Positions 25,081 through 26,384 of a stretch of 64,000 nt of DNA are shown in pieces. Source of the DNA: Octopus vulgaris (Eukaryota); the NCBI GenBank assembly GCA_951406725.2, contig OX597818.1, positions 137,020,001 through 137,084,000 of the forward strand, written 5' to 3'. Below the pieces are notes generated by a model. That model did not search any database and had not been told where the DNA came from. It saw nothing but the letters and a program-made list of their open reading frames with translations. The first letter of the stretch is position 1. The number at the start of each line of letters is the position of its first letter. The position numbers and the translations under genes were made by a program.

Positions 25081-25297
25081 AAATATTTTGTGTATTGTAG
25101 AAATATAGCCAATTAATTGCACATAAATTTTAACAACAAAATTACTATTTTTAAAATCGCACAACATGAGATATTCAGCAACAGTACTTTGTAGTAAAGA
25201 TTGTTTGCCAACATAACATGGCAGTCCTAAACCAGGACTGCCATGTTATATTGGTAAACAATCTTTACTACAAAATCTTATATGCCCTCGACCACCA

Positions 25298-25447
25298 AAA
25301 ATAATACACAGTGAACACCACTGGAAAATACTAAAAGAAGCAGCACATATGCTAGGACACAACAACCTCCTAAGCAGACCGAGTGCAGCTATGAATAGCA
25401 TATGGGGACCGGTATTAAGAAAGGATAGGAGAATATTAGATTTATAA
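25298..25447 (+). pseudogene. C-terminal fragment of a Penelope-like GIY-YIG endonuclease
   Basis: KIIHSEHHWKILKEAAHMLGHNNLLSRPSAAMNSIWGPVLRKDRRILDL* fits the PLE pattern KIL..E..W.....KEA..I...N..N.......W..L; absent from the ORF track because no upstream ATG. Confidence 0.6.
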
Positions 25448-25476
25448 GCCCTAAAATTCACTCCATAAGTGCTCAC

Positions 25477-25542
25477 GGGCATATGGCGTAGTGGTTAAGA
25501 GGGCTACTAACCTCAAGATTCCGAGTTCGATTCCAGGCAGTG
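25477..25542 (+). other. tRNA-derived head (Pol III A/B boxes) followed by (AAT)n
   Basis: tggcgtagtgg A box and gagttcgattcc B box; homologous to 53410-53480. Confidence 0.75.
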
Positions 25543-25620
25543 ATGATGATGATAATAATGATGATAATAATAATAATAATATTAATAATAATGATAATAA
25601 TAATAATAATAATAATAATG

Positions 25621-25656
<36 letters not shown>

Positions 25657-25867
25657 TTAATAATAATAATAACAACAGCAACATCGAAAAGTACCCAGGT
25701 TCGAAATGTAACAACAAATATCCGTTAAATGTAAATAATGTACATAATTCCCCATCTCTTCAATAGAGAACTATATAGAATGGGTTCTGACACATAGAAA
25801 ATAGTAAGCAATTCACGTATGCACACACATGCATACATCCACACACATATTCACATAATTTCCCCGA

Positions 25868-25913
25868 GACACCTGATGAAGCCTGGAGGGTATATCAGTC
25901 GAAACGTTGTGTT
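25868..25913 (+). ncRNA. Minimal type I hammerhead
   Basis: GACAC-CUGAUGA-A-GCCUGG..UCAGUC-GAAA-CG-UU-GUGUU; stem II carries mismatches. Confidence 0.65.
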
Positions 25914-26384
25914 AACAAGAAACAAGATGAGGACAAATATCCCTCAAATGTAAATAATGTAAATAAGGGACTTCATTGATATGATTGTGTGTGTGTGTGT
26001 GTGTGAATGCTATTACATTTGTTACGATTGTACGTATGTATGTTTATGCAACTGTATAATCTCCTTGGTGGCTTCACATCTTTATGCGTATCGGTGAGTG
26101 TGTGAGTGTGTACGGATGCGTTTGTGAACGACCGTGATGGTGCATACTGTATCAGTTCACGTGTTAGTGTATGGTCGTTTGGATACATGTTACTATCGAA
26201 AATATGTGCCGAAGGGCATTTATATGTAATTGTCTCAAATGACATGTTGGTGTATTGCTGTATTGGTACAGGCTACCATTGACGGCATCGGTTGCGAGGC
26301 ATTTGTATATATATATATATCTCAATTTATGTTGCATGGCTGTGTTTGTATTAGTACATGTCACTGTTGTAGGCGTGAATCGTC

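What the first reader, a model, noticed from the sequence alone, without database searches (positions are those of the whole stretch)
25188..25967. Penelope GIY-YIG C-terminus directly followed by the tRNA-(AAT)n-HHR cassette
Seen: a hairpin with 41-bp arms (25188-25274) runs into an open frame ...CYIGKQS...KIIHSEHHWKILKEAAHMLGHNNLLSRPSAAMNSIWGPVLRK...* (stop at 25447). The tRNA head starts 30 nt after the stop, followed by (AAT)n, an HHR-deleted tail, and a second tail with the HHR (25868). Established: PLE ORFs end in a GIY-YIG domain followed by an HHR-containing pLTR, and insertions often have inverted 5' segments and partial tandem ends. Inference: the parent PLE carries a tRNA-derived Pol III promoter inside its pLTR, which would explain the origin of the 53167 SINE.
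Basis: partly seen in the sequence, partly recalled or inferred. Interest (0 to 1): 0.75.

Follow-up and report, generated by a model that had tools for sequence, protein, structure and literature searches.

The report
Penelope retroelement end carrying tRNA-derived promoter
A many-copy family of Penelope-type retroelements, likely from octopuses, carries a tRNA-derived stretch between the end of its nuclease gene and its hammerhead-ribozyme-like tail; this stretch likely works as a promoter that spawns short SINE-like copies, which would be moved by the Penelope enzyme instead of by a LINE.

Summary
25298-25447 is the last 44-50 codons of a Penelope-like (PLE) GIY-YIG endonuclease, 80% identical over 44 residues to an Octopus vulgaris gene model; relatives carry reverse transcriptase upstream. 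Reads show that nuclease end, 29-nt spacer and tRNA-like head form one high-copy unit in three organisms: depth is continuous, and 8 of 24 listed contigs bridge nuclease to head. It is not a one-off SINE insertion. The hammerhead tail is PLE-native. The 314-bp copy at 53167-53480 (13-bp TSD) starts at or within 5 nt of tRNA +1. One part is wrong: the hairpin, with its CYIGKQS, is a fold-back of an unrelated repeat, not the YIG motif or an inverted PLE end. Not shown: a single molecule from RT to head, Pol III transcription, ribozyme cleavage, or an excess of copies starting at the head. Best reading: a PLE subfamily with a Pol III-type promoter in its pseudo-LTR, probably parent and mobiliser of a tRNA SINE. 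It works like Helenus/Cassandra and schistosome Sm-alpha. Ten literature searches found no such PLE; Repbase, Dfam and the 1994 octopus SINE paper could not be checked.

The parts
25298..25447 (+). 3' end of a PLE ORF: C-terminus of the GIY-YIG endonuclease with stop at 25445-25447; copy is 5'-truncated at 25298 and lacks two codons near 25329 that the family has
   Evidence: profile hit 25298-25429, E 5.8e-16; 35/44 identical to O. vulgaris CAI9723794.1; loose ends and 6-nt insertion in reads
25448..25476 (+). 29-nt spacer between stop and head, part of the family
25477..25541 (+). tRNA-derived head; A box from 25484, B box 25523-25534; this copy lacks about 4 nt at 25500; inferred tRNA +1 at 25477
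   Evidence: tRNA HMM from 19 unrelated tRNAs hits 25485-25535, E 0.0086; motif count; insertions after 25500 in reads
25542..25675 (+). (AAT)n-type repeat inside the cassette
   Evidence: reads run from the head into AAT repeats (loose ends behind 25540)
25676..25747 (+). first tail, hammerhead removed by a net 67-nt deletion
   Evidence: alignment to the 53167 copy
25748..25856 (.). unassigned; second half CA-rich; possible run-on into the next ORF start not supported
   Evidence: no protein match above shuffles, 7 of 40 reach it; only microsatellite-like matches in the window
25857..25966 (+). second, 5'-truncated tail with minimal type I hammerhead 25868-25913 (core 25873; one mismatch in stem II; predicted cut after 25908)
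   Evidence: six-frame match to PLE-adjacent gene models, 37 bits, 0 of 40 shuffles
53167..53480 (-). stand-alone 314-bp copy: head, (AAT)n/(AAC)n, intact minimal hammerhead (53221-53266), tail; starts at tRNA +1 to +6
   Evidence: best tRNA-HMM hit of the window, E 0.0019
53154..53166 (.). 13-bp target-site duplication, 3' side of the stand-alone copy
53481..53493 (.). 13-bp target-site duplication, 5' side; its last 3 nt also fit the head
25188..25274 (.). neighbour, not part of the element: fold-back hairpin of a different high-copy repeat, turned at a 5-bp internal inverted repeat (25224-25238)
   Evidence: depth gap at 25280-25294 and loose ends at 25224 and 25228; no nuclease match

Best explanation
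[quoted passage not shown] Steps. (1) Shown: nuclease end, spacer and head are one unit in many diverged copies in three organisms. (2) Shown at the level of translated gene models: the tail is PLE sequence. (3) Inferred: the cassette is the pseudo-LTR of full-length, RT-bearing copies; it arose once, when a tRNA or tRNA-SINE head entered the 3' untranslated end of a PLE ancestor. (4) Inferred: Pol III starts at the head and meets no T4 stop up to the tail end, so it makes an RNA of about 300-400 nt that holds the hammerhead region, where a Poseidon protein is known to start reverse transcription internally. (5) Inferred: a lone minimal hammerhead does not cut, so the monomer stays whole, and the PLE protein inserts it with a variable target-site duplication and a fixed 3' end. 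The long ORF is not predicted to be a Pol III transcript.
For:: depth continuous over 25295-25541 in X1 (organism A), X7 (C), X13 (E) and RNA run X24 (C); 8 of the 24 listed contig pieces hold 31 or more nt of both nuclease and head, 9 more reach 12-24 nt into the head, with 11-33 differences from the window copy, so they are other loci; none of the 24 listed loose ends (of 1136) offers a common other path behind the stop (one 2-contig, 8-nt end at 25428); loose ends lead upstream into more nuclease in all four runs and downstream into AAT repeats; chain window (80%) - P0003 O. vulgaris (83%) - P0082 O. sinensis, which runs about 160 residues upstream and aligns at 59-60% to RT+EN proteins P0071 and P0073 (RVT_1 E 5e-11, 1e-11); tail translations match gene models beside the nuclease (37 and 35 bits, 0 of 40 shuffles each); P0003 itself begins with this tail in antisense (12 of 15 residues), the inverted arrangement described for PLEs (PMC8557442, passages). 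A and B boxes with canonical T8-G53 spacing of 45 nt in the 53167 copy; both heads rank with the window's other tRNA-SINE heads; no T4 run from head to tail end in either copy; 13-bp TSD; start at +1 to +6. Two tails end within 1-3 nt of each other. In X24 depth is flat over nuclease end and spacer (750-824) and rises to 1008-1409 over the head. Mechanistic precedent: internal RT initiation near the hammerhead, with uncleaved RNA as substrate (PMC11167929, parts 1-2); minimal hammerheads inactive as monomers (PMC4209133, parts 1-2).
Against: No genome is held, and no molecule spanning RT to head was seen; one 2323-nt contig with 2159 nt upstream could not be read. 2 of the 24 listed pieces (X13 records 10 and 12) leave the stretch at the end of the spacer and run on unaligned for 53 and 580 nt, so some copies lack the head or have a diverged one. 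Only 24 of 23,638 pieces were listed, the longest first. No RNA start or end peak was found and reads lie equally on both strands, so there is no sign of a discrete Pol III transcript; such a library is also a poor test. Part of the depth rise over the head is an alignment effect of the 4-nt deletion at 25500. A clean start at the head rests on one copy, with 3 nt of microhomology at the junction. The head does not fold as a cloverleaf and scores weakly: pairwise score of the 25477 head reached by 16 of 300 shuffles. The 25873 hammerhead has a broken stem II, and the first tail has lost it. The GIY-YIG fold match is weak (Z 5.4; Foldseek E 0.43).
Confidence: 0.6

Rival explanations
1. The head is a fixed but inert passenger of the PLE 3' end. 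Head-only copies like 53167 are ordinary 5'-truncated PLE insertions whose cDNA happened to stop near the head; there is no separate SINE.
For: PLE copies are typically 5'-truncated (PMC8557442, PMC8969392, passages); the window's other pieces are truncated at 25298 and 25857; the 53167 junction has 3-nt microhomology; a palindromic stem at the spacer-head border could stall reverse transcription (sequence; fold no better than shuffles); no RNA end peaks.
Against: The 53167 copy starts within 5 nt of +1; A and B boxes are intact in both copies; X24 depth steps up at the head while flat across the nuclease end.
Confidence: 0.25
2. The nuclease-end + head unit is a non-autonomous chimera: a SINE with a PLE-derived tail arose first, recombined or template-switched onto a PLE fragment, and the chimera amplified; active full-length PLEs lack the head.
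For: No RT-to-head molecule seen; 2 of 24 listed pieces diverge at the spacer end; read-through gene models of a related subfamily show other sequence behind the stop and no match to the head (13 of 40 shuffles).
Against: Family reads continue upstream into more nuclease at 25298 in all four runs, and the closest named relatives extend to the RT side; no common alternative 3' path is listed.
Confidence: 0.1
3. A LINE-mobilised SINE inserted by chance behind a PLE fragment at this one locus.
For: The window is full of other tRNA-SINE heads; the tail ends in two 9-nt units, as LINE-type tails can; an earlier report in another genome found a SINE-PLE join to be a one-off (e1-7811937, unchecked).
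Against: The junction recurs in many diverged contigs in three organisms; the tail is PLE-homologous; no TSD of 8 nt or more brackets the head at 25477 (best 7 nt).
Confidence: 0.03

Closest known systems
Penelope/Poseidon-clade PLEs (Poseidon_Ac, PMC11167929; min-HHR PLEs, PMC4209133)
   Same: RT plus C-terminal GIY-YIG ORF in relatives, minimal type I hammerhead in the terminal region, 5' truncation, inverted terminal copy in a gene model, fixed 3' end without poly(A)
   Different: a tRNA-derived A/B-box head and an (AAT)n run lie between stop and hammerhead; described PLE promoters lie in the pseudo-LTR with an intron (PMC8557442, passage) and none was found described as tRNA-derived
TRIMp3: Helenus (tRNA in LTR), Cassandra and Ajax (5S in LTR) (PMC10886601, passages)
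   Same: small-RNA-derived Pol III promoter placed inside the terminal repeat of a retroelement, proposed there to arise by SINE insertion into the repeat
   Different: those are non-coding LTR elements with PBS, PPT and 4-6-bp TSDs; here the host is a PLE, the head is attached to coding sequence, the TSD is 13 bp; the paper does not mention Penelope (0 occurrences)
Schistosome Sm-alpha / Sj-alpha SINE-like elements (PMC6765202, passages)
   Same: Pol III promoter followed by a hammerhead in a roughly 300-bp unit
   Different: often tandem, with a hammerhead that cleaves in vitro; no coding parent named in the passages read; here dispersed monomers with a minimal hammerhead, and the head is found attached to a PLE ORF end
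Animal non-LTR retrozymes (PMC7229834, passages; bioRxiv 10.64898/2026.07.22.740005, parts 1-3) and non-autonomous Chlamys such as MRC1 (PMC8557442, passage)
   Same: non-autonomous sequences derived from, or sharing 3' ends with, PLE pseudo-LTRs and proposed to use PLE enzymes
   Different: tandem arrays and circular RNAs; no tRNA head reported in what was read
tRNA-derived SINEs (SINEBase definition, PMC3531059, passages); octopus OK, OR1, OR2 families (Ohshima and Okada 1994; not held, family names OK and OR1 recalled)
   Same: short, tRNA head, internal promoter boxes, TSD
   Different: defined as dependent on a partner LINE with a simple-repeat 3' tail; here the 3' part is PLE-derived and the simple repeat is internal. 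Whether this head is one of the 1994 families could not be checked

Membership tests
EN+ PLE, Penelope/Poseidon clade | [quoted passage not shown] | tested here: met
   window 25298-25429 matches the profile of relatives that show C-x-C between the two motifs; fold of relative P0027 ranks I-TevI first but weakly (Z 5.4, rmsd 3.7, 72 aligned); Pfam gave no GIY-YIG hit
EN+ PLE, Penelope/Poseidon clade | RT upstream in the same ORF | tested here: met
   for relatives only: RVT_1 in P0071 and P0073, 70% and 66% to P0003 over the nuclease; weak TERT matches, E 0.021. The window copy has lost this part
EN+ PLE, Penelope/Poseidon clade | no extra zinc finger between RT and EN (separates it from Neptune and Nematis) | tested here: inconclusive
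   none seen by eye in P0071 and P0073; no tree was built
EN+ PLE, Penelope/Poseidon clade | minimal type I hammerhead in the pseudo-LTR | tested here: met
   descriptor hit at 53261, stem II 6 bp, stem I 5 bp, 0 in 100 shuffles; 25873 copy has one stem II mismatch; Rfam has no hit
EN+ PLE, Penelope/Poseidon clade | tandem or inverted pseudo-LTRs around a full-length ORF, with the head inside them | tested here: inconclusive
   antisense tail fused to sense nuclease in gene model P0003; no full-length locus available
EN+ PLE, Penelope/Poseidon clade | optional 30-40-bp tail from two RT start sites | tested here: inconclusive
   two tails end within 1-3 nt; where the first tail ends is unknown
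tRNA-derived SINE | short (<700 bp), non-coding, dispersed, with TSD | tested here: met
   314 bp between 13-bp duplications; one copy
tRNA-derived SINE | tRNA-derived head with A and B boxes | tested here: met
   isotype not resolved; ARAGORN calls only at relaxed thresholds (1 of 300 and 21 of 300 shuffles)
tRNA-derived SINE | transcribed by RNA polymerase III | not testable with these tools
   one search shows no RNA ends and no strand bias
tRNA-derived SINE | mobilised by a partner LINE | not tested
   no LINE library available; the 3' part is homologous to PLE-adjacent sequence
Animal non-LTR retrozyme | tandem units each with a complete hammerhead | tested here: not met
   window only: one monomer, one deleted and one damaged hammerhead; arrays elsewhere not examined
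Animal non-LTR retrozyme | circular RNA | not tested
TRIMp3 (Helenus) | two LTRs with PBS and PPT, 4-6-bp TSD | tested here: not met
   single unit, 13-bp TSD
Sm-alpha-type elements | Pol III promoter upstream of a hammerhead in one short unit | tested here: met
   order head, repeat, hammerhead in both copies; sequence homology to Sm-alpha not tested

The most novel reading that the evidence does not exclude
An autonomous octopus Penelope/Poseidon retroelement has captured a working tRNA-derived Pol III promoter in its pseudo-LTR and is both parent and mobiliser of an abundant tRNA SINE: a SINE partnered with a PLE instead of a LINE, born from inside its partner, and a model for where promoter-plus-hammerhead elements such as Sm-alpha come from.
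Probability: 0.45. Interest if true: 0.75.

Novelty: new variant of a known kind. Interest (0 to 1): 0.6.

Why it matters
SINEs are defined as passengers of LINEs, and are thought to arise when a small-RNA head gains a LINE tail. Here the head is found attached to the coding end of a Penelope-like element in many copies, which would give a SINE with a PLE partner and show its birth by the opposite route: the autonomous element takes up the promoter and sheds the SINE. It would extend the Cassandra/Helenus principle to a third class of retroelement and make the long-proposed trans-mobilisation of hammerhead elements by PLE enzymes testable with a named pair, using the existing in vitro Poseidon assay. 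It also bears on repeat annotation in octopus, where SINEs are 11.6% and PLEs 6.8% of the O. vulgaris assembly and most recently active SINE families are unclassified (PMC13282606).

Tried and rejected
No whole genome held. Rfam at gathering score: 0 hits; at E-value: microsatellite and hairpin noise among the 150 of 403 rows shown, no tRNA or hammerhead in narrow searches. ARAGORN default: 0 genes. Pfam: no hit for the window peptide, no GIY-YIG hit for 32 or 6 relatives. Word-indexed search of the peptide among longer proteins: 0 of 23 candidates. Two exact-pattern scans of metagenome contigs: 0 loci. Head against phage DNA: 7 chance matches, none on a tRNA. Idea that the whole 29-nt spacer is an inverted copy of the head: fold no better than shuffles, 79 of 200, and the spacer is family sequence; rejected, apart from a short palindrome at the border. 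A five-residue match between a spacer frame and the read-through of P0022, which would have marked the insertion point of the head: 136 of 200 shuffles reach it; rejected. Reading 25737-25812 as the start of the next ORF: 7 of 40 shuffles reach the best score; unsupported. No TSD of 8 nt or more around the 25298-25966 unit or its sub-units. Four of 69 phmmer hits extend into the hairpin-derived residues, aligning them to a different part of the nuclease; judged chance because reads assign that DNA to another family; one hit (P0005) is a repetitive protein and was ignored. Earlier-findings look-ups by sequence, place and first word set: nothing. Papers not held: Ohshima and Okada 1994, Albertin 2015.

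Full report
1. Observation. The coordinates are right: hairpin arms 25188-25228 and 25234-25274, open frame with stop at 25445-25447, head from 25477, (AAT)n to about 25675, a first tail lacking a net 67 nt, and a second tail 25857-25966, 91% identical to the minus-strand copy at 53167. That copy is 314 bp between 13-bp duplications at 53154-53166 and 53481-53493. No genome is held, so outside evidence comes from proteins and sequencing runs. The host is inferred to be an octopus from the two closest named proteins.

2. The peptide. Pfam and a word-indexed search gave nothing. An exhaustive phmmer search gave 69 hits at E<=0.001; in 65 of 69 the best stretch starts at residue 22 or later. The hits are C-terminal parts of a nuclease with C-x-C between the two GIY-YIG-like motifs. 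The closest, P0003 (O. vulgaris CAI9723794.1), is 35/44 identical. P0003 is 83% identical over 58 residues to P0082 (O. sinensis), which runs about 160 residues further upstream and aligns at 59-60% to P0071 and P0073; these carry an RT domain with weak matches to group II intron-like RTs and TERT. A model of relative P0027 (pLDDT 83) ranks I-TevI first in both fold searches, but weakly (E 0.43; Z 5.4). A profile of 29 relatives hits the window once, at 25298-25429, and gives no score to the first 27 residues. So the frame is a fusion: only the part from 25298 is PLE.

3. The hairpin is something else. Laying three DNA runs (contigs; organisms A, C, E) and one RNA run (raw reads, about 6% read; organism C) on 25100-25541 at 80% likeness, depth is very high on both sides of 25280-25294 and 30, 39, 1.6 and 0 within it. 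Family reads continue left of 25298 with sequence that translates as GDHLPLWDEV, as in P0003, in all four runs. Loose ends at 25224 and 25228 show the hairpin's own family going on past a 5-bp inverted repeat at which the window folds back. CYIGKQS is therefore a chance reading; close relatives have Y-K at that motif (14 of 16 parsed).

4. The junction is a family trait. In the same call depth is continuous from 25295 to 25541 in all four runs. Of 24 listed contig pieces (of 23,638 laid, longest first), 8 hold at least 31 nt of both nuclease and head, 9 more reach 12-24 nt into the head (most stop at the window's 4-nt deletion at 25500), 5 end in the spacer at their own contig end, and 2 (X13 records 10, 12) leave at the spacer end and run on unaligned. 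The bridging pieces differ from the window at 11-33 positions, so they are other loci. X1 may be the window's source; X7 and X13 carry other organism codes. Loose ends behind 25540 run into AAT repeats. Summed contig depth is no copy number and none is claimed. In RNA reads depth is 750-824 over nuclease end and spacer, 1008-1089 over the 5' half of the head and about 1400 over its 3' half; the second step is at least partly due to the deletion. Reads are balanced between strands and show no start or end peak.

5. The tail is PLE-native. Six-frame translations of both tails, compared with 84 of the 85 proteins held, match gene models that also contain the nuclease (37 and 35 bits; 0 of 40 shuffles each), and P0003 begins with this tail in antisense (12 of 15 residues). 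Spacer plus head matches nothing above shuffles (13 of 40), and read-through peptides of a related subfamily differ, which suggests, weakly, that the head is specific to this subfamily. The hammerhead has the minimal PLE form: 5-bp stem I, an unpaired base before stem II, no stem III with a palindromic four-mer; the descriptor hits only 53261, 0 in 100 shuffled windows, and the 25873 copy has one stem II mismatch. Rfam does not call it.

6. The head. An HMM from 18 phage T5 tRNAs and one E. coli tRNA ranks the 53167 head first in the window (E 0.0019) and the 25477 head eighth (E 0.0086), among the other SINE heads. A and B boxes are present, 45 nt from T8 to G53 in the 53167 copy, as in tRNA numbering (count on the match; numbering from general knowledge). 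It does not fold as a cloverleaf, ARAGORN calls it only at relaxed thresholds, and the isotype is unresolved. tRNA +1 maps to 25477 and 53485; the stand-alone copy begins at +1 to +6, the range set by microhomology with its TSD. Neither copy has a T4 run from head to tail end.

7. How it likely works. Shown: items 2-6. Inferred: the cassette is the pseudo-LTR of RT-bearing copies; Pol III makes a short RNA from the head; the PLE protein recognises the hammerhead region and starts reverse transcription internally, as shown in vitro for Poseidon_Ac, where uncleaved RNA is the main substrate (PMC11167929, parts 1-2 of 4 read); a lone minimal hammerhead does not cleave (PMC4209133, parts 1-2 of 4), so the monomer survives; variable TSDs are expected of the PLE nuclease (PMC8557442, Introduction and passages). 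Two tails in the window end within 1-3 nt of each other, without poly(A). I put 0.9 on the head being a fixed part of this PLE 3' end, 0.7 on full-length copies carrying it, about 0.5 on head-only copies being true Pol III SINEs, and 0.6 on the explanation as best account. The main rival is that head-only copies are plain truncations.

8. What is known. It works like Helenus and Cassandra (Pol III promoter inside a terminal repeat; PMC10886601, passages, Penelope not mentioned) and like Sm-alpha (promoter then hammerhead; PMC6765202, passages), but fails their LTR and tandem features here. Non-autonomous PLE derivatives are in print (PMC7229834 and PMC7761336, passages; bioRxiv 10.64898/2026.07.22.740005, parts 1-3 of 5, supplements not seen; MRC1 in PMC8557442). 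SINEBase defines SINEs as LINE-dependent (PMC3531059, passages, no mention of Penelope or hammerhead). Ten full-text searches returned no report of a tRNA head in a PLE pseudo-LTR or of a PLE-mobilised tRNA SINE. The O. vulgaris repeat annotation (PMC13282606, parts 1-2 of 3 and a supplement search) does not describe it in what was read; its library on Zenodo, Repbase, Dfam and Ohshima and Okada 1994 could not be seen and may already hold this head or consensus. Also seen as passages only: PMC6962438, PMC4758252, PMC8969392. Two earlier scan notes from other genomes are leads only: one tRNA-like unit with PLE-type insertions, one SINE-PLE join that proved a one-off, the rival that one search excludes here.

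9. Verdict. A real, conserved, many-copy architecture; a new variant of known kinds. The hairpin part of the finding is wrong, the core is well supported at the structural level, and function is untested. Interest 0.6; 0.75 if the SINE-PLE partnership is confirmed (probability 0.45).

Noticed in passing
window 25143-25277: The hairpin repeat seems to interrupt a third high-copy repeat: about 200 contigs per run leave the window behind 25142 with sequence that resumes near 25278, and similar 10-mers lie at 25133-25142 and 25268-25277. Three repeat families are nested here.
   Followed up: partly
window 25224-25238: The fold-back turns at a 5-bp internal inverted repeat of its own family, which suggests a template switch.
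   Followed up: partly
window 5341, 18593, 20985, 23017, 24830, 27163, 38076, 41816, 55584, 58908 and others: Many other tRNA-like heads, most of one further SINE family, found by the tRNA HMM.
   Followed up: no
window 41029-41053 (+) and 41587-41563 (-): An inverted pair of near-identical segments about 550 bp apart, each matching the loose hammerhead core pattern but not the stricter descriptor.
   Followed up: no
window 53940-54200: Long inverted repeat around 54091 with a hammerhead-core-like word; not matched by the stricter descriptor.
   Followed up: no
window 60872-61109: Inverted arms around a long (TA)n run, MITE-like.
   Followed up: no
protein P0041: A gene model of a related subfamily runs from the nuclease C-terminus straight into what looks like a PLE ORF N-terminus (recognised from recall), as expected from a tandem or a splice across the pseudo-LTR.
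   Followed up: no
   Followed up: no
window 25873-25879 and 53255-53261: The hammerhead core holds an ATG that opens a 25-codon frame; in Poseidon_Ac the ORF starts at the hammerhead (PMC11167929). Here the frame stops, so the ORF start is unknown.
   Followed up: partly
window 45234-45333: Assembly gap of 100 N.
   Followed up: no
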